A DNA stretch of 21,210 bases from a phage: assembly GCA_012690745.1 (NCBI GenBank), contig GCA_012690745.1_4086.5. The stretch is one strand, 5' to 3'. The notes below the pieces were generated by a model. That model was given only the letters and a program-made list of their open reading frames with translations. It did no database searches and had not been told where the DNA came from. Below are positions 9,969 through 20,872 of this stretch, one piece after another. Position 1 is the stretch's first letter; each line of letters starts with the position of its first letter. The translations under genes and the position numbers were made by a program.

Positions 9969-10160
9969 ATGTTGATTTATCAAAGTGATAATATTCGTGT
10001 TATGCAGCATCCCTACTTACAAATCTTTGATGTGCAGCAGTATATGGAAGGTGATGACCCAAGAACCTATGGTCGTAAGTATGATTACTTCACTGTAAAG
10101 CAGTGTAAAAATATTAACGAAGTACGACAATTAGTTCAAGAACTTCAAAACAAAGGTTGA
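9969..10160 (+). CDS. hypothetical protein
   Basis: Track start 9915 overlaps upstream gene; in-frame ATG 9969 has AAGGA 8 nt upstream. The TGA stop lies inside the downstream terminator hairpin. Confidence 0.55.
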   Translation: MLIYQSDNIRVMQHPYLQIFDVQQYMEGDDPRTYGRKYDYFTVKQCKNINEVRQLVQELQNKG

Positions 10161-10186
10161 CTTCGGTCAGCCTTTTTTGTTATAAT
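10152..10186 (+). promoter_or_regulatory. terminator hairpin fused to promoter (repeated module, copy A)
   Basis: ggttgac-ttcg-gtcagcc stem-loop (10155..10172) plus T6; TTGACT inside the stem (10157..10162), 18-nt spacer, TATAAT 10181..10186. Confidence 0.7.
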
Positions 10187-13391: not shown

Positions 13392-13428
13392 AAAAGGGTT
13401 GACTAAGGTCAGCCCTTTGTTGTATCAT
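13392..13428 (+). promoter_or_regulatory. terminator hairpin fused to promoter (repeated module, copy B, variant loop)
   Basis: gggttgac-taag-gtcagccc (13396..13415) plus T-rich tail; TTGACT 13399..13404, 18-nt spacer, TATCAT 13423..13428. Confidence 0.6.
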
Positions 13429-13579: not shown

Positions 13580-13617
13580 GGTTGACTTCGGTCAGCCTTT
13601 TCTTTATACTATAAATA
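13580..13617 (+). promoter_or_regulatory. terminator hairpin fused to promoter (copy C) overlapping a TATAAATA late box
   Basis: ggttgac-ttcg-gtcagcc (13580..13597) plus T-rich run; TTGACT 13583..13588; exact TATAAATA at 13610..13617. Confidence 0.65.
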
Positions 13618-13634: not shown

Positions 13635-14912
13635 ATGAAATCTATGGAGAGAAATCAAATGCCAAGTAATTTTACTGATAAAAATGGTGGTAACATGGCT
13701 GGTCACTCTGATAAATGGAGTGAACGCAACCGCCGTCCAAATAGTTATCAAGCAGGTCAAGGTTCACGTGGATCACGTAACCAAGGAACTGGTCTAGCTG
13801 GTAAAGCAAACGCAGAAGCAGGTGAAGTTAAGAGTACTGAGAACATGACTGAGCTAGAAAAGCTACGTTATGTTAATTCATTGGGACTTCTTAATGCTAC
13901 ACAAAAACAACGCCTAGCTGATATGGAACGTGAAGAAAAAGAAAAATCTGCTCCTGCTAAAGAAGAACCAAAACAAGAAGCACCAAAGGCGGTTAACCCT
14001 GTCAAAGAACTGTCGGATAAGTTAGGTAAGATTTTTGCTAATAAACCACAACTTATCCAAGGTATTGTGAAAGAATTGCAATCTGTACCTAAAGAAGAAT
14101 TAAAAGTCAAAGCACAAGCTGTGCTTGATGCAATGAGTGGAAATACCAGTACTGAACCAACTGAAGTATTCAGTACTATAATGCGTGCACTTGAAGGTAC
14201 GCAACAAGGTGATGTGCCTGCACAAGAGGAAGTAAGTCTTGAAAGCGTACTTAAAACATTTGATAGTATTGGTAAAGAAGACCGTGCTAATGCTCAACAA
14301 GTTAAGAATGTACTAGCTAAGTTAGAAAACCGTCTGGAAGGTAAAGACGATAAGATTAAATTAGTATCTGATGCAGTTAACGATGCACTTAAATCTTATG
14401 TACAAGGTGAAAAGAGTCGTTTTGTAACTGCAATGGATGCTGCATTCAATACTATGAAAAAGTATGAAGCTGATCATGGTGAGAAGGTTACACGAGATGG
14501 TTATCTGATGCGTGATGATGAAGAAGGTGCAGTAGAACAGAACGATGTTCATTCAGACGAAGAAATTGATGACATGGAAGCTGAACTGTCACAAGACCGC
14601 CAAATGACTGAAAAATCCCATAACGAACTACAGAAATTAATGCAATGGGTTGCAGATGTTGGTGAAAAAGCTGGTGCTGATAAGAAGAGTATAAACCGAA
14701 ATCTTAGTTGGATTAAAGATAAAGTTGGTAACAACGCTCGTAAACTACAAAAAGCGTGGACTGATGTAGTGAATGGTGCTGTTGATATTGATGTTGAATC
14801 CGGTGAGGCATATGATTATGCATTGACTACACTTGATGACTCTTTCCGTGATTACGAAAATGGAAATGTAACTCCTTGGGAAAAGGACATCATGAGCAAA
14901 TACGGTAAATGA
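13635..14912 (+). CDS. hypothetical 425-aa protein with Gly/Ser/Arg-rich, probably disordered N-terminus; candidate late (virion-associated) protein
   Basis: Longest ORF in the window; preceded by a TATAAATA late box; N-terminal region paralogous to 13006; acidic, Lys/Glu-rich central part. Confidence 0.75.
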   Translation: MKSMERNQMPSNFTDKNGGNMAGHSDKWSERNRRPNSYQAGQGSRGSRNQGTGLAGKANAEAGEVKSTENMTELEKLRYVNSLGLLNATQKQRLADMEREEKEKSAPAKEEPKQEAPKAVNPVKELSDKLGKIFANKPQLIQGIVKELQSVPKEELKVKAQAVLDAMSGNTSTEPTEVFSTIMRALEGTQQGDVPAQEEVSLESVLKTFDSIGKEDRANAQQVKNVLAKLENRLEGKDDKIKLVSDAVNDALKSYVQGEKSRFVTAMDAAFNTMKKYEADHGEKVTRDGYLMRDDEEGAVEQNDVHSDEEIDDMEAELSQDRQMTEKSHNELQKLMQWVADVGEKAGADKKSINRNLSWIKDKVGNNARKLQKAWTDVVNGAVDIDVESGEAYDYALTTLDDSFRDYENGNVTPWEKDIMSKYGK

Positions 14913-14920
14913 TAAAACAA

Positions 14921-14954
14921 AAGGTTGACTTCGGTCAGCCTTTTTTTGTAAATA
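14921..14954 (+). promoter_or_regulatory. terminator hairpin fused to promoter (copy D)
   Basis: ggttgac-ttcg-gtcagcc (14923..14940) plus T7; TTGACT 14925..14930; weak -10 TAAATA 14949..14954. Confidence 0.65.
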
Positions 14955-14983: not shown

Positions 14984-15235
14984 ATGAAAAAATATATTAT
15001 ATTTGGAATTGTATTATTTTCCAGTACTGCTTATGGTGCAGATTATCATTGCTCCGTAGCAAGGCAGGATTTCAGAAATGGGGAGTTCTATACTACCTCA
15101 TACACAAAAGGAATAATACACGACACCGACAGAACTATTGGATTTAATGCGTTTGACAACAAAGATTCATATACTTCAGGTATACTATCTGAGCGTAAGA
15201 CTGATGTAATGGGAATAGAAAAAGAGTTCCGGTGA
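14984..15235 (+). CDS. putative secreted protein
   Basis: Track ORF 14909 reads through the hairpin; in-frame ATG 14984 has GAGGG 6 nt upstream; MKKYIIFGIVLFSSTAYGADY signal peptide. Confidence 0.6.
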   Translation: MKKYIIFGIVLFSSTAYGADYHCSVARQDFRNGEFYTTSYTKGIIHDTDRTIGFNAFDNKDSYTSGILSERKTDVMGIEKEFR

Positions 15236-15245
15236 TTCAGTAGCA

Positions 15246-15569
15246 ATGTGTAATGACATTGAAAGTACTAAAACAATTTATTATAATAATGAACGTAACT
15301 ATCGTTTTCATAATTTAACCACAAATAAAAGTTTACTATTTTACAATTGTAAAGAAGTAATACTCCCATCAGACAATAGCTGTACTCCAACTAATCAACC
15401 CCCAGCACAATGTAATACTCCCTCTGAACCTGATAAAAATAAAAAAGACAAAGATAAAGATAAAAAAGAAGACAAAAAACCTTTAAAAGATAAAAAGAAA
15501 GATAAAAAACATAATCCGTTTAAAAATAATAAACAAGCACAACCCGATATGACGTGTAAAATAAAATAA
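15246..15569 (+). CDS. hypothetical protein with Lys/Asp-rich low-complexity tail
   Basis: Only a weak SD (GGTGA); C-terminal DKNKKDKDKDKKEDKKPLKDKKKDKKHNP encoded by a simple aaagat-type DNA repeat (about 15430..15510). Confidence 0.4.
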   Translation: MCNDIESTKTIYYNNERNYRFHNLTTNKSLLFYNCKEVILPSDNSCTPTNQPPAQCNTPSEPDKNKKDKDKDKKEDKKPLKDKKKDKKHNPFKNNKQAQPDMTCKIK

Positions 15570-15578
15570 GGATATATA

Positions 15579-15998
15579 ATGAAAAAGATTTTTTTAAGTA
15601 TTATTTTAGTACTTTTTAGTTTTAATGTATATGCAGCAGATGCTAAACAGGTTGCAAATACAGTAAAAGATGTTATAGTAGATAATGCTCCTACATTAGA
15701 GGAAATTGGGGTAAAAACTTGTGATATAGTAATATATAATTTAGTTAATGATGAACGAGTTATGTTGAATACGTATGAACAAGTAGTCCCATTGGTTGAA
15801 TCTGGTGATGCTTTTAGCTTTACATATAAAGTTAAATTAACAGGAGGGGTTGAAGTTAATCTTGACATTGATACCGCTTCAGTACTAAAAGATAAACTAG
15901 GATATGTGTTCAATCGTATTCGTGAAGAAGGTCATCTTAAGTATGTTTATGAAAGTAAAATACTAAAACGTGCAATAGTTATAGAAAACTGTAAATGA
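15579..15998 (+). CDS. putative secreted protein
   Basis: AAGGA 7 nt upstream; MKKIFLSIILVLFSFNVYAADA signal peptide. Confidence 0.65.
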   Translation: MKKIFLSIILVLFSFNVYAADAKQVANTVKDVIVDNAPTLEEIGVKTCDIVIYNLVNDERVMLNTYEQVVPLVESGDAFSFTYKVKLTGGVEVNLDIDTASVLKDKLGYVFNRIREEGHLKYVYESKILKRAIVIENCK

Positions 15999-16006
15999 TA
16001 ATAAAA

Positions 16007-16039
16007 GGGTTGACTTCGGTCAGCCTTTTTTGTTATGAT
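16007..16039 (+). promoter_or_regulatory. terminator hairpin fused to promoter (copy E)
   Basis: gggttgac-ttcg-gtcagcc (16007..16025) plus T6; TTGACT 16010..16015, 18-nt spacer, TATGAT 16034..16039. Confidence 0.7.
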
Positions 16040-16067
16040 GTTGGTATTAACTACAGAGGATAAAGTA

Positions 16068-16709
16068 ATGACTAAGCAAGACATATTCAAAACTTTAATT
16101 GACATTTTGCGTCCATCAAAAACTCGTTGTGCGATGGAGTTTGATATTCCTTATGCTGAACGCGTAATCTTTCCACAAGTTAAAGCTGCTGGACTTACTT
16201 TGCTTGGAATGGGGATGTACTCTGTAGTAGTTGAACATAAAAACTATCCTGGGCGTGCATTTAAAGTAACCACTTCACGCTGGGATGGTTTTCGTGCTTA
16301 TGCAAAGTACTGCATTGAAAACGCAGGAACCAAGTTTCTTCCAGTGATCTACAGTGCAAACGAACAAGGAAACTTTGGATGGTATGAGATGGACAAGTAC
16401 TATCCTATAATTAAACAAAAAAATAATTATGATGACTTTGTTAGTACTAAAATTGGAGATTTATATTCTTATGCACATGCTGGTCAGTACGCTACTTCAG
16501 TGAATGATATGCGTGGAAATTCTGAAGAGATTGCTATTGCGACGGTCGCTGCTAACATCATGAAAGAGTTTCACGGGCGTTTTGTACCAGACATTCATTC
16601 CAGTAATGTCATGATGGATAAAGATGGCAATGTATTCATTACTGATCCTCTTTCGTGTGATGTACGTAGAGAAATACCAGTTACTGAAGAAGATCCAGTT
16701 TTTTATTGA
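16068..16709 (+). CDS. protein-kinase-like (atypical kinase fold) protein
   Basis: Track start 16035 lies inside the -10 box; ATG 16068 has GAGGA 7 nt upstream. Gly-rich loop LLGMGMYSVVV, candidate beta3 Lys in RAFKV, catalytic-loop-like VPDIHSSNVMMD and DFG-like ITD in canonical order. Confidence 0.65.
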   Translation: MTKQDIFKTLIDILRPSKTRCAMEFDIPYAERVIFPQVKAAGLTLLGMGMYSVVVEHKNYPGRAFKVTTSRWDGFRAYAKYCIENAGTKFLPVIYSANEQGNFGWYEMDKYYPIIKQKNNYDDFVSTKIGDLYSYAHAGQYATSVNDMRGNSEEIAIATVAANIMKEFHGRFVPDIHSSNVMMDKDGNVFITDPLSCDVRREIPVTEEDPVFY

Positions 16710-16770
16710 CAGAACTGATGTTCTGGTGTATTCTTAATAAACCATAAAAATTGCGGTAAAGGATAAAATC

Positions 16771-17054: not shown

Positions 17055-17393
17055 ATGGAACAATATTTTGAATTAATAAACAAAGTATCATTTTATGTAG
17101 TATCTTTGGTTTGGGTGTATTATATGTTTTGCTACATTATTGCATTCTTCCGATACACTACTTTATATGAACGTATCTACTATGATGCCCCAATTTCATT
17201 CTTGATGTTTTGTGCATGTACGTGGGGAATATTAGAAGTACTGATATGTGGGTATAGTACTGATGAATTAAATCTGGTATCGGTCTTGACTGGGTTTTCA
17301 TTTGTTGTTATGATAGCTGCCGTTCCAGTATGGTTGTTCTTTGGACTAGTTCATCGCATTGATATATGGCGTTCTAATATCCCTGAAAAGTAA
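17055..17393 (+). CDS. small membrane protein, tandem paralog 1 of 3
   Basis: Three hydrophobic segments; shares FRYTTLYERIY and C-terminal R…NIPEK with the two following ORFs. Confidence 0.6.
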   Translation: MEQYFELINKVSFYVVSLVWVYYMFCYIIAFFRYTTLYERIYYDAPISFLMFCACTWGILEVLICGYSTDELNLVSVLTGFSFVVMIAAVPVWLFFGLVHRIDIWRSNIPEK

Positions 17394-17402
17394 GGATTGG
17401 TA

Positions 17403-17744
17403 ATGATTTATTACACTAACATGTTTGCCTATGCTGTTGCTTGCATTTACATTGTGTACTTCTTATTCGGTGGAGTACTGTGCTTCTTTAAGTACAAAAC
17501 GTTGTTCAACCGAATGTACCCAAATCATCCAATTGTAGTTGTACTTTTGATTCTTTCAGTTTCTCAAATAATCGTTGAAACTACAATGGGTATCAGTAGT
17601 GTACATTATAGTTTTGGTACTATAGTAATTATTACTATGCTTATTGCATACATTTTAGTACTTGGATATGGTATCTTTGGTAATATTGGTATGAAAATGT
17701 ATCATCGAATTAAAACATTACGTGATAATCTACCGGAGCGTTGA
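17403..17744 (+). CDS. small membrane protein, tandem paralog 2 of 3
   Basis: Track start 17397 is TTG; ATG 17403 has AAGGA 6 nt upstream. FKYKTLFNRMY and C-terminal LRDNLPER. Confidence 0.6.
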   Translation: MIYYTNMFAYAVACIYIVYFLFGGVLCFFKYKTLFNRMYPNHPIVVVLLILSVSQIIVETTMGISSVHYSFGTIVIITMLIAYILVLGYGIFGNIGMKMYHRIKTLRDNLPER

Positions 17745-17745
17745 T

Positions 17746-18090
17746 ATGTATAATTTGAACCTAATCTCATATATTATAACAACACTGTTTACATTCTATG
17801 CCTTTGTTGGTATAATCCTACTGTACTTTAAATTTTATAAAGTGTTTAACCGTTTCTATCCTTCAATGGAGAATGAGTTTTTCTTTGTGTTGTACGTAGG
17901 TTACACATTAATGGCTACATGTTTCACTGTAGCCGATGGTGTCATCGGCATTAAAACTGATTCCCCAAATGGTAGTACGCTGGTTGCATTTATTCTTACT
18001 GGATTCCTTGCAACTTATATAGCCTTCATTACAACATGGTCAGTGGTTGAATTTCTCTTGCGACTACGAACGAATATGCCGAATCGATAG
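17746..18090 (+). CDS. small membrane protein, tandem paralog 3 of 3
   Basis: Track start 17722 is GTG inside the previous gene; ATG 17746 has GGAG 7 nt upstream. FKFYKVFNRFY and C-terminal LRTNMPNR. Confidence 0.6.
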   Translation: MYNLNLISYIITTLFTFYAFVGIILLYFKFYKVFNRFYPSMENEFFFVLYVGYTLMATCFTVADGVIGIKTDSPNGSTLVAFILTGFLATYIAFITTWSVVEFLLRLRTNMPNR

Positions 18091-18735: not shown

Positions 18736-18763
18736 TTGACAAACACATTCTGTACTGTATAAT
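18736..18763 (+). promoter_or_regulatory. sigma70-type promoter TTGACA-16-TATAAT
   Basis: TTGACA 18736..18741, spacer ending gtactg, TATAAT 18758..18763; followed by a 7-bp leader hairpin gggatga/tcatccc at 18776..18794. Confidence 0.6.
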
Positions 18764-18812: not shown

Positions 18813-19367
18813 ATGATTACTTTTAAGAAAACTGCTAACCACATCCATGAAATCTACATTAACGGTCACAAAGCTGGCCTTCTTCGTTTACTCGCCCATC
18901 ACCCTGATGCTACCGTATCTGATAATGAACCTAAAGATTGGCGTGTATTTTTCTTTGGAAAGTACAGTGATTTTCAAGTATCAAACCTGAAGAACATTCG
19001 TTCAGTATGCACGTTAACTGAAATTAAAGAAAAGTTAGCACAAGCATTGAAAACTAATCCAGATGGTGTTCTTCCACCTGATAACTTTGTAGAGAAAGGT
19101 TATGCCTTAGCTCATTTCAAAGATGGTACTATTCAATCTATCAGTACTGAATATGAATATCATTGGACTGAGTACTTCACTTATGGTTCGAGTAATACAT
19201 TGATGGATTCACGTAGTAAATTGGAAGAAGTACTGACTCGTATGAATGAACGCGAGCGTCAGTTATATGACAAACCAGAAATGTGGAGTTCAACTTACAT
19301 TGACCGTATTGACTATGTTATTATGACTCCAATCTTTGACACTGCTTACTATGATTCTTTGAAATAA
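18813..19367 (+). CDS. hypothetical protein
   Basis: GAGGA 6 nt upstream; 184 aa. Confidence 0.65.
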   Translation: MITFKKTANHIHEIYINGHKAGLLRLLAHHPDATVSDNEPKDWRVFFFGKYSDFQVSNLKNIRSVCTLTEIKEKLAQALKTNPDGVLPPDNFVEKGYALAHFKDGTIQSISTEYEYHWTEYFTYGSSNTLMDSRSKLEEVLTRMNERERQLYDKPEMWSSTYIDRIDYVIMTPIFDTAYYDSLK

Positions 19368-20295: not shown

Positions 20296-20328
20296 GGGTT
20301 GACTTCAGTCGGCCCTTTTTGCTATAAT
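20296..20328 (+). promoter_or_regulatory. terminator hairpin fused to promoter (copy F, degenerate stem)
   Basis: gggttgac-ttca-gtcggccc with two G-U pairs plus T5; TTGACT 20299..20304, 18-nt spacer, TATAAT 20323..20328. Confidence 0.65.
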
Positions 20329-20840: not shown

Positions 20841-20872
20841 GGTTGACTTCGGTCAGCCTTTTTTGCTATAAT
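20841..20872 (+). promoter_or_regulatory. terminator hairpin fused to promoter (copy G)
   Basis: ggttgac-ttcg-gtcagcc (20841..20858) plus T6; TTGACT 20843..20848, 18-nt spacer, TATAAT 20867..20872. Confidence 0.7.

What the first reader, a model, noticed from the sequence alone, without database searches (positions are those of the whole stretch)
16068..16709. Phage ORF with an atypical protein-kinase-like catalytic core
A Gly-rich loop (LLGMGMYSVVV), RAFKV (beta3 Lys), HSSNVMMD (catalytic loop with Asn) and ITD (metal-binding Asp) occur in the canonical order and spacing of the protein-kinase-like superfamily (Kdo/aminoglycoside/choline-kinase-like). It is the first gene of an operon that also holds the three membrane paralogs. 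T4 itself is not known to encode a protein kinase, so the substrate is open.
Basis: partly seen in the sequence, partly recalled or inferred. Interest (0 to 1): 0.6.

Follow-up and report, generated by a model that had tools for sequence, protein, structure and literature searches.

The report
Jumbo-phage copy of T7 protein kinase
The ORF is a real but already annotated and published protein kinase: a short, stand-alone relative of the phage T7 gp0.7 kinase carried by 350-kb E. coli jumbo phages (not T4), whose enzymatic activity and targets have never been tested.

The parts
16068..16709 (+). CDS of the 213-aa stand-alone T7K-type protein kinase domain (stop codon TGA at 16707-16709)
   Evidence: ORF and translation. 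phrog_15752 at 4e-91 and phrog_2828 (the T7 gp0.7 family) at 8e-17. BLASTP to T7 gp0.7 at 5e-9. hhalign probability 98.5%. Pfam PF27024 Phage_T7_kinase on all homologs. 210/213 identical to the phage G17 'putative protein kinase'.
16200..16232 (+). Gly-rich (P-) loop, L45-V55. G49 corresponds to T7K G76, the site of the catalytic-dead G76F mutation.
   Evidence: G47 and G49 are invariant. Mapping to T7. G76F is described as catalytic-dead in PMC13645617.
16263..16265 (+). K66, the beta3 ATP-anchoring lysine (T7K K93)
   Evidence: Invariant in A1. 186/189 in the wider family. It lies in predicted strand 63-68, which is followed by helix 75-84 (alphaC).
16590..16607 (+). Catalytic loop D175-I-H-S-S-N180 (T7K D195-M-H-S-G-N200), with His at the D+2 position where Ser/Thr kinases have Lys
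   Evidence: D175 and N180 are 187/187 and H177 is 181/187. The loop aligns with the HRDxKxxN segment of PAK4.
16644..16655 (+). DFG-like D193-P-L followed by S196 (T7K D213-P-V-S216). Only 20 residues follow D193, so the canonical activation segment and helices alphaF-alphaI cannot be present.
   Evidence: D193 is 187/187 and P194 is 184/187. DPV motif and the inhibitory Ser216 site are from PMC13645617. Secondary structure of the model. S196 is G or A in most close relatives.
16004..16031 (+). GC-rich hairpin (GGTTGAC-TTCG-GTCAGCC) flanked by an A-run and a T6 run. It is terminator-like, and its 5' arm contains the -35 hexamer TTGACT (16010-16015).
   Evidence: Sequence. RNA fold -16.2 kcal/mol, z = -6.0. 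Seven copies in the window against 0 expected. Annotated as a terminator in G17.
16010..16039 (+). Sigma-70-type promoter: TTGACT, 18 nt spacer, TG-n-TATGAT (extended -10 at 16031-16039)
   Evidence: Consensus scan scores 10/12 with the TG extension. The -10 element is conserved in the aligned cassette copies. Function is inferred, not shown.
16056..16060 (+). Shine-Dalgarno sequence GAGGA, 7 nt upstream of the ATG at 16068
   Evidence: Read directly from the sequence.
16710..16725 (+). Weak hairpin immediately after the stop codon, without a proper T-run. It may be a leaky terminator. A TTGACA hexamer overlaps the stop codon.
   Evidence: Scan. Fold -7.8 kcal/mol, z = -2.1.

Best explanation
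The ORF encodes a stand-alone member of the phage T7 kinase (gp0.7/T7K) family, i.e. the kinase domain only. Shown here: it is homologous to the T7K kinase domain. Its confident predicted structure has the kinase core in canonical order: beta1-3, alphaC, beta4-5, alphaD/E, catalytic loop and DFG-like loop. Every residue needed for phosphotransfer is present and conserved: G47/G49, K66, D175, N180 and D193. These include the equivalent of T7K G76, whose mutation kills T7K. Inferred: it is an active ATP-dependent Ser/Thr(/Tyr) protein kinase. It is transcribed by host RNA polymerase from the sigma-70-type promoter embedded in the upstream hairpin cassette, and so probably early in infection. Like T7K and its Autographiviridae homologs, it would phosphorylate many host (and phage) proteins to take over the cell and blunt anti-phage defences. 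The DPL motif, like T7K's DPV, lacks the Phe of DFG and would keep the enzyme in an always-on conformation. S196, the equivalent of T7K's inhibitory autophosphorylation site S216, could switch it off. Because it lacks T7K's C-terminal DNA-binding/shut-off domain, it should neither shut off host transcription nor share T7K's bias towards nucleic-acid-bound substrates.
Against: No biochemical or genetic data exist for any jumbophage member. [quoted passage not shown] In JSS1, the kinase domain without the SO domain lost nearly all anti-Dnd activity in vivo, so an SO-less kinase may not be an effective anti-defence factor. Neighbouring proteins show no obvious Ser/Thr/Tyr depletion (14-25%), whereas such depletion is reported for early proteins of T7K-encoding Autographiviridae; this comparison has no baseline and is weak. 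Early timing rests only on a consensus promoter match, and the number of such matches in this AT-rich region is no higher than in shuffled sequence (25 against 28.6 expected). A virion structural protein gene lies in the same co-directional region. The alphaC Glu-Lys salt bridge could not be checked.
Confidence: 0.7

Rival explanations
1. It is a narrow-specificity kinase. The jumbophage branch, having lost the SO domain, phosphorylates one or a few dedicated targets rather than the whole proteome. Candidates are a specific host factor or defence protein, or phage proteins such as the neighbouring small or membrane proteins.
For: The branch is diverged from T7K at 26% identity. It lacks the SO domain. 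The third residue of the DFG-like motif differs (L rather than V) and varies within the family. The paper leaves promiscuity open for this branch. In this phage the gene sits upstream of three membrane paralogs.
Against: There is no substrate-docking C-lobe (no alphaF-alphaI; only 20 residues follow D193), the same minimal architecture as in promiscuous T7K. The membrane paralogs and the 93-aa neighbour are absent next to the kinase in relatives at 45-61% identity, so there is no conserved gene linkage.
Confidence: 0.2
2. It is a small-molecule kinase of the aminoglycoside/choline/Kdo kinase type. It would phosphorylate a metabolite, antibiotic or sugar rather than proteins.
Confidence: 0.05
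3. It is a catalytically dead pseudokinase that acts by binding ATP or partner proteins.
For: No activity data exist. The alphaC Glu equivalent was not identified. The C-lobe is truncated.
Against: All catalytic residues are strictly conserved across hundreds of diverged relatives, which is the signature of selection for catalysis. T7K has the same truncated architecture and is highly active.
Confidence: 0.04
4. It is a bifunctional T7 gp0.7 equivalent, as the RefSeq label says: a kinase that also inhibits host transcription and regulates RNase III and RNase E.
For: The product names in the 121Q and PBECO4 RefSeq records and the phrog_15752 description.
Against: The protein ends 20 residues after the DFG-like Asp. 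The alignment to T7 gp0.7 stops at T7 residue 230 of 359. The shut-off/DNA-binding function maps to T7K residues 243-359, which are absent here. The Nature paper also states that the jumbophage kinases lost the SO domain. The label is an annotation transfer.
Confidence: 0.02

Closest known systems
Phage T7 gp0.7 protein kinase (T7K; UniProt P00513; PHROG 2828; Pfam PF27024 Phage_T7_kinase) and its Autographiviridae homologs (JSS1_004, Bas64-68, T3)
   Same: The kinase domains are homologous, including the N-terminal helical region. The motif set is the same: G-x-G-x-[FY]-S, K in [VF]-[IF]-K-V, D-x-H-S-x-N-[IV]-M and I-T-D-P. The minimal architecture is the same, with almost nothing after the DFG-like motif. 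The equivalents of G76 and S216 are present. Predicted structures superpose at TMq about 0.7.
   Different: Identity is only 26%. The C-terminal about 120-aa SO/DNA-binding domain is missing. The motif is DPL rather than DPV. The N-terminus is about 27 residues shorter. The host genome is a 350-kb myovirus rather than a 40-kb podovirus. It is not the leftmost early gene of a T7-type class I operon. Activity is untested.
Annotated orthologs in Asteriusvirus jumbo phages: 121Q gp205 (YP_009101792.1), the G17 'putative protein kinase' QBO61604.1, the PBECO4 and phAPEC6 orthologs, and (from the literature only) the T7 kinase homolog of Sharanji, WNN14432.1
   Same: It is essentially the same protein: 210/213 identical to G17, and the locus is 99+% identical at the DNA level across more than 20 genomes. 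It is already called a protein kinase or T7 kinase homolog (PMC11895373; PMC13645617).
   Different: Some records start the CDS 33 nt upstream (224 aa). Some carry the over-transferred T7 gp0.7 functional label, and others say 'hypothetical protein'. Sharanji's sequence was not compared with the window here.
Eukaryotic-type Ser/Thr protein kinases (e.g. PknB 1mru, TTK 3dbq, PAK4) and aminoglycoside phosphotransferases
   Different: There is no significant sequence similarity (E > 0.2). There is no activation segment, APE motif or alphaF-alphaI. His replaces Lys at D+2, and Pro replaces Phe in the DFG motif. An N-terminal three-helix extension (aa 3-40) is present.

Membership tests
Protein-kinase-like (PKL) superfamily | Two-lobed fold: N-lobe beta-sheet plus alphaC, and a C-lobe carrying the catalytic and metal-binding loops | tested here: met
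Protein-kinase-like (PKL) superfamily | Gly-rich loop, beta3 Lys, catalytic D-x-x-x-x-N and metal-binding Asp, in that order, and conserved | tested here: met
   G47/G49, K66, D175/N180 and D193 are invariant in A1 and 98-100% conserved in about 187 aligned stretches from distant relatives.
Protein-kinase-like (PKL) superfamily | alphaC acidic residue forming a salt bridge with the beta3 Lys | tested here: inconclusive
   Helix 75-84 follows beta3. The conserved D73 (160/189) sits at its N-cap.
Protein-kinase-like (PKL) superfamily | ATP-dependent phosphotransfer activity | not testable with these tools
   This requires a biochemical assay.
Phage T7 kinase family (gp0.7/T7K; Pfam PF27024; PHROG 2828 and 15752) | Significant sequence homology to the T7K kinase domain (residues 1-242) | tested here: met
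   BLASTP 5e-9. hhalign 98.5%, E = 3e-15. phrog_2828 at 8e-17. Reciprocal hit of T7 gp0.7 to phrog_15752 at 1.7e-46. PF27024 precomputed on all homologs.
Phage T7 kinase family (gp0.7/T7K; Pfam PF27024; PHROG 2828 and 15752) | Divergent DFG-like D-P-V motif, followed by the autophosphorylation serine (S216) | tested here: met
   The sequence is D193-P194-L195-S196. D and P are conserved. The third position is V 97, L 44, I 23 across relatives, matching the paper's remark that the Val is less conserved in jumbophages. S196 is present here but is G or A in most close relatives.
Phage T7 kinase family (gp0.7/T7K; Pfam PF27024; PHROG 2828 and 15752) | C-terminal shut-off (SO)/DNA-binding domain (T7K 243-359) | tested here: not met
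   The protein ends at aa 213, 20 residues after D193. The alignment to T7 gp0.7 ends at T7 residue 230. This domain defines the full-length Autographiviridae architecture, not the kinase-domain family, so it is a domain-architecture difference. The result agrees with PMC13645617.
Phage T7 kinase family (gp0.7/T7K; Pfam PF27024; PHROG 2828 and 15752) | Early expression by host RNA polymerase | tested here: inconclusive
   A sigma-70-type promoter with an extended -10 lies 29 nt upstream of the start codon, embedded in a conserved cassette. No transcript data are available.
Phage T7 kinase family (gp0.7/T7K; Pfam PF27024; PHROG 2828 and 15752) | Hyperpromiscuous dual-specificity protein phosphorylation and an anti-defence effect | not testable with these tools
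   This is shown only for T7K, Bas64-68 and JSS1_004. It is explicitly left open for the jumbophage homologs.
   The local Pfam scan returned no family at E<=10. The catalytic loop is V-P-D-I-H-S-S-N, with no His at D-2. The structural similarity to APH(3')-IIIa and APH(2'') is no better than to protein kinases.

The most novel reading that the evidence does not exclude
The jumbophage branch may be a natural 'kinase-only' T7K. Freed from the DNA-tethering SO domain, it either floods the infected cell with untargeted Ser/Thr/Tyr phosphorylation, or has evolved a different targeting logic and a different set of disarmed defence systems from those of T7. Such targeting might come from its conserved N-terminal helices or from partner proteins. 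Comparing it with T7K would show how substrate bias is encoded in this minimal kinase fold.
Probability: 0.35. Interest if true: 0.5.

Novelty: already known. Interest (0 to 1): 0.25.

Why it matters
T7K has recently been shown to be a hyperpromiscuous kinase that disarms diverse bacterial defence systems, with its substrate bias supplied by the C-terminal DNA-binding domain. The jumbophage homolog is a natural experiment that lacks this domain. Testing it would show whether promiscuous phosphorylation alone is a useful takeover or anti-defence weapon, and whether the strategy extends beyond the T7 family. That question is already posed in the literature, so this finding adds no new object. 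What it adds is a corrected gene model, a corrected functional label, and a residue-level mapping for mutagenesis: G49, K66, D175, D193 and S196.

Tried and rejected
(1) The local Pfam-A scan of the ORF gave no hits at E<=10. This says little, because T7 gp0.7 itself also gets no hit; the copy predates PF27024.

(2) NCBIfam gave only a meaningless SurA hit at E = 0.039.

(3) Sequence searches of the PDB, with the single sequence and with the profile, found nothing significant. The best kinase hits were E = 0.29-1.2, and a spectrin hit at 0.02 is spurious. No relative has a solved structure that is detectable by sequence.

(4) PADLOC defence models gave no hits for the kinase or three neighbours.

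(5) I tested whether the kinase and the membrane paralogs form a conserved module. tblastn of ten neighbouring proteins plus the kinase against the kinase loci of three relative lineages (four loci) found none of the paralogs and not the 93-aa gene. The idea was rejected.

(6) I looked for Ser/Thr/Tyr depletion of neighbouring proteins as an indirect sign of a promiscuous kinase. None was evident, but there is no proper baseline, so no conclusion follows.

(7) A second word-indexed homolog search using the alignment added only one new protein. The exhaustive representative search was needed to reach the wider family.

(8) The phAPEC6 virion-proteome paper does not mention this kinase, so there is no evidence that it is packaged.

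Full report
**Observation.** Window 16068-16709 (+) is an open reading frame of 213 codons plus a stop. An in-frame ATG at 16035 would give 224 aa, and this is the start used in the 121Q record. However, that ATG lies inside the predicted -10 hexamer TATGAT at 16034-16039. The ATG at 16068 is preceded by GAGGA (16056-16060) at a 7-nt spacing. All homologs down to 40% identity start at the equivalent Met, and phage G17 is annotated with this start.

**Where the window comes from.** The region is 99.1-99.8% identical to about 20 jumbo coliphage genomes of 320-373 kb, including E9.1, JP4, PBECO4, 121Q, phAPEC6 and G17. These belong to the genus Asteriusvirus. It is not T4. In most of these records the ORF is already named 'protein kinase'. 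RefSeq uses the full T7 gp0.7 label: 'protein kinase; inhibitor of host transcription; positively regulates RNaseIII; negatively on RNaseE'. G17's annotators cite the CDD domain PHA00451.

**What it is, from sequence.**
- The protein matches phrog_15752 at 4e-91 and phrog_2828 at 8e-17.
- T7 gp0.7, fetched from NC_001604, is the core of phrog_2828 (1.6e-169). It also hits phrog_15752 at 1.7e-46 over its residues 6-222.
- Direct BLASTP gives E = 5e-9 at 26% identity, aligning aa 41-210 with T7 aa 68-230.
- A 22-sequence profile against T7 gp0.7 gives hhalign probability 98.5%, E = 3e-15.
- All homologs carry the precomputed Pfam family PF27024, named Phage_T7_kinase.
- The local Pfam copy lacks this family and misses T7 gp0.7 too, so its silence means nothing.

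The residue mapping to T7K is: G49 = G76, K66 = K93, D175 = D195, N180 = N200, D193-P-L = D213-P-V, and S196 = S216. G76F is the catalytic-dead T7K allele, and S216 is the reported inhibitory autophosphorylation site (PMC13645617).

**Conservation.**
- In 22 family members at 40-65% identity, G47, G49, K66, D175, H177, N180, T192, D193 and P194 are invariant.
- An exhaustive profile search finds 1,479 cluster representatives at E <= 1e-3 and 195 at E <= 1e-10.
- In about 187 aligned domain stretches from the best 150 of these, the other homologs found here and T7 gp0.7, K66 is 186/189. D175, N180 and D193 are 187/187, and P194 is 184/187.
A weak alignment to PAK4 places D-I-H-S-S-N...I-T-D on HRD-I-K-S-D-N...L-S-D.

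**What it is, from structure.**
- An AlphaFold2 model built on the 22-sequence alignment is confident: pLDDT 93.2, pTM 0.88.
- Its secondary structure follows the kinase order. Strands 44-48, 52-56 and 63-68 are beta1-3, helix 75-84 is alphaC, and strands 94-100 and 103-109 are beta4-5. Helices 127-141 and 152-168 are alphaD/E. Short strands then surround the catalytic loop and the DFG-like loop.
- Foldseek against the PDB likewise returns only kinases in the top 50, at TMq 0.35-0.46.
- Foldseek against viral models returns Autographiviridae protein kinases at E about 1e-14 and TMq about 0.7.
- The modest scores against cellular kinases have a clear cause. Only 20 residues follow D193, so the canonical activation segment, APE motif and helices alphaF-alphaI cannot be present. 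An N-terminal three-helix extension (aa 3-40) is present instead.
- T7K shares this minimal architecture, with DPV at 213-215 and the kinase domain ending at 242.

**What it is not.**
- The protein stops where T7K's C-terminal domain (243-359) would begin. That domain carries the host shut-off activity and the DNA binding that biases T7K towards nucleic-acid-binding substrates (PMC13645617). The 'inhibitor of host transcription' part of the RefSeq label is therefore an over-transfer.
The local Pfam scan returned no family, there is no His at D-2, and the structural similarity to APHs is no better than to protein kinases.

**What is already published.** Bartolec et al. [quoted passage not shown] The window's protein is 210/213 identical to G17's. 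[quoted passage not shown] The object and its interpretation are thus already known. One small addition from this work: the paper says Ser216 is conserved in all variants, but in the close relatives collected here the equivalent position is mostly Gly or Ala. This phage group is one of the few with Ser there.

**Surroundings and expression.**
- Immediately upstream lies AAAAGGGTTGAC-TTCG-GTCAGCC-TTTTTT (16004-31), a stable hairpin (-16.2 kcal/mol, z = -6).
- Its 5' arm contains a TTGACT -35 hexamer. After an 18-nt spacer comes TG-n-TATGAT, an extended -10.
- The 18-nt hairpin core occurs seven times in the window, all on the + strand and in intergenic positions, against zero expected. The aligned copies share the T-run and a TATAAT-like -10.
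- The same cassette recurs several times per 10 kb in relatives whose kinases are only 45-61% identical. It sits directly upstream of the kinase in one of them, L003.
- The exact 24-mer is confined to three ~350-kb viral contigs in IMG/VR.
- This is a composite terminator/sigma-70-promoter element, analogous to the PeSL cassettes of T4-like phages (PMC2839356, PMC4122927). Here the -35 element is embedded in the stem.
- It makes the kinase the first gene after a terminator/promoter boundary. That supports transcription by host RNA polymerase, which is plausibly early, as for T7 gene 0.7. This is inference from consensus only.
- Downstream there is a weak hairpin without a T-run (z = -2.1). It is followed by a 93-aa gene, then three tandem paralogs with three TM-like segments each, all in phrog_19285.
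- The next cassette is at 20297, and a perfect 12/12 sigma-70 consensus lies at 18736-18763.
- Neither the 93-aa gene nor the membrane paralogs accompany the kinase in relatives, so a functional link is unsupported.

**Mechanism.** Shown: homology to an experimentally characterised protein kinase, a kinase core fold, and a full and conserved catalytic set. Inferred: the protein is an active Ser/Thr(/Tyr) kinase made from a host-type promoter. It would phosphorylate host and phage proteins broadly. The DPL motif, lacking the DFG Phe, would favour a permanently 'in' conformation, and S196 is a possible autoinhibitory site. Lacking the SO domain, it should neither shut off transcription nor focus on DNA-bound targets. 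Caveats: in phage JSS1, the SO-less kinase lost almost all anti-Dnd activity in vivo (PMC12345140). Neighbouring proteins show no evident S/T/Y depletion. No data exist for any jumbophage member.

**Verdict.** The T4 framing and the Kdo/APH-like sub-classification are wrong, and the operon link to the membrane paralogs is unsupported. The gene is already annotated and has been discussed in two papers. What remains open, and is stated as open in the literature, is its activity, its promiscuity and its role without the SO domain.

Noticed in passing
window 10155-10172, 13397-13414, 13580-13597, 14923-14940, 16008-16025, 20297-20314, 20841-20858 (+); also L003-L006: There is a conserved composite hairpin/sigma-70-promoter cassette: A-run, GGTTGAC-TTCG-GTCAGCC, T-run, then a TATAAT-like -10, with the -35 TTGACT inside the 5' arm of the stem. 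Seven copies occur in the window against 0 expected. Several copies per 10 kb occur in relatives whose kinases are only 45-61% identical. The exact 24-mer is found only on three ~350-kb IMG/VR contigs. It resembles the PeSL terminator/promoter cassettes that mediate gene shuffling in T4-like phages.
   Followed up: partly
window 17055-17393, 17403-17744, 17746-18090 (+): Three tandem paralogous small proteins (112-114 aa, 24-31% identity) all fall in phrog_19285. Each has three TM-like hydrophobic segments and a conserved C-terminal R-x-N-[ILM]-P-[EN]-[KR] tail. Their function is unknown. They are not found next to the kinase in more distant relatives.
   Followed up: partly
window 16035-16067; records NC_025447 (121Q) and NC_027364 (PBECO4): The RefSeq records start the kinase CDS 33 nt too far upstream, at an ATG inside the -10 hexamer. 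They also carry the full T7 gp0.7 functional label (host transcription inhibition, RNase III/E regulation), although the shut-off domain is absent. Other near-identical genomes call the gene 'hypothetical protein'.
   Followed up: yes
window 13635-14912 (+): A 425-aa acidic, low-complexity protein matches the 'virion structural protein' phrog_20398 at 6e-180. It sits in the same co-directional block of small genes and has its own hairpin/promoter cassette at 13580. This cautions against calling the whole block 'early'.
   Followed up: no
window 14984-15235, 15246-15569, 15579-15998 (+): The three small genes upstream of the kinase include two with signal-peptide-like N-termini (MKKYIIFGIVLFSSTAYG and MKKIFLSIILVLFSFNVYA). 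The third has a Lys/Asp-rich low-complexity tail (KDKDKDKKEDKKPLKDKKKDKKH). None has an informative family.
   Followed up: no
window 18736-18763 (+): A perfect 12/12 sigma-70 consensus (TTGACA, 16 nt spacer, TATAAT) lies just upstream of the 184-aa ORF at 18813, without the hairpin cassette. It would split the putative transcription unit that starts at the kinase.
   Followed up: no
proteins P0015-P0027 (alignment A1) and P0036, P0037, P0039, P0040: The close family splits into a 211-218-aa group and a 226-237-aa group. The longer group has an insertion of about 20 residues between the two C-lobe helices. The wider T7K-like family (1,479 representatives) also includes multi-domain proteins of 776-1343 aa with the kinase module embedded; one shows up to 9 matched stretches. 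These were not examined.
   Followed up: no
window 16653-16655 (S196); alignment A1: The equivalent of T7K's inhibitory autophosphorylation site Ser216 is Ser in this phage but Gly or Ala in most of the close relatives collected here. The published statement is that this Ser is conserved in all variants.
   Followed up: partly
window 16706-16734 (+): A TTGACA hexamer overlaps the kinase stop codon and is followed by a small hairpin and TATTCT at a 17-nt spacing. This arrangement, with the -35 next to or within a stem, echoes the main cassette in degenerate form.
   Followed up: partly
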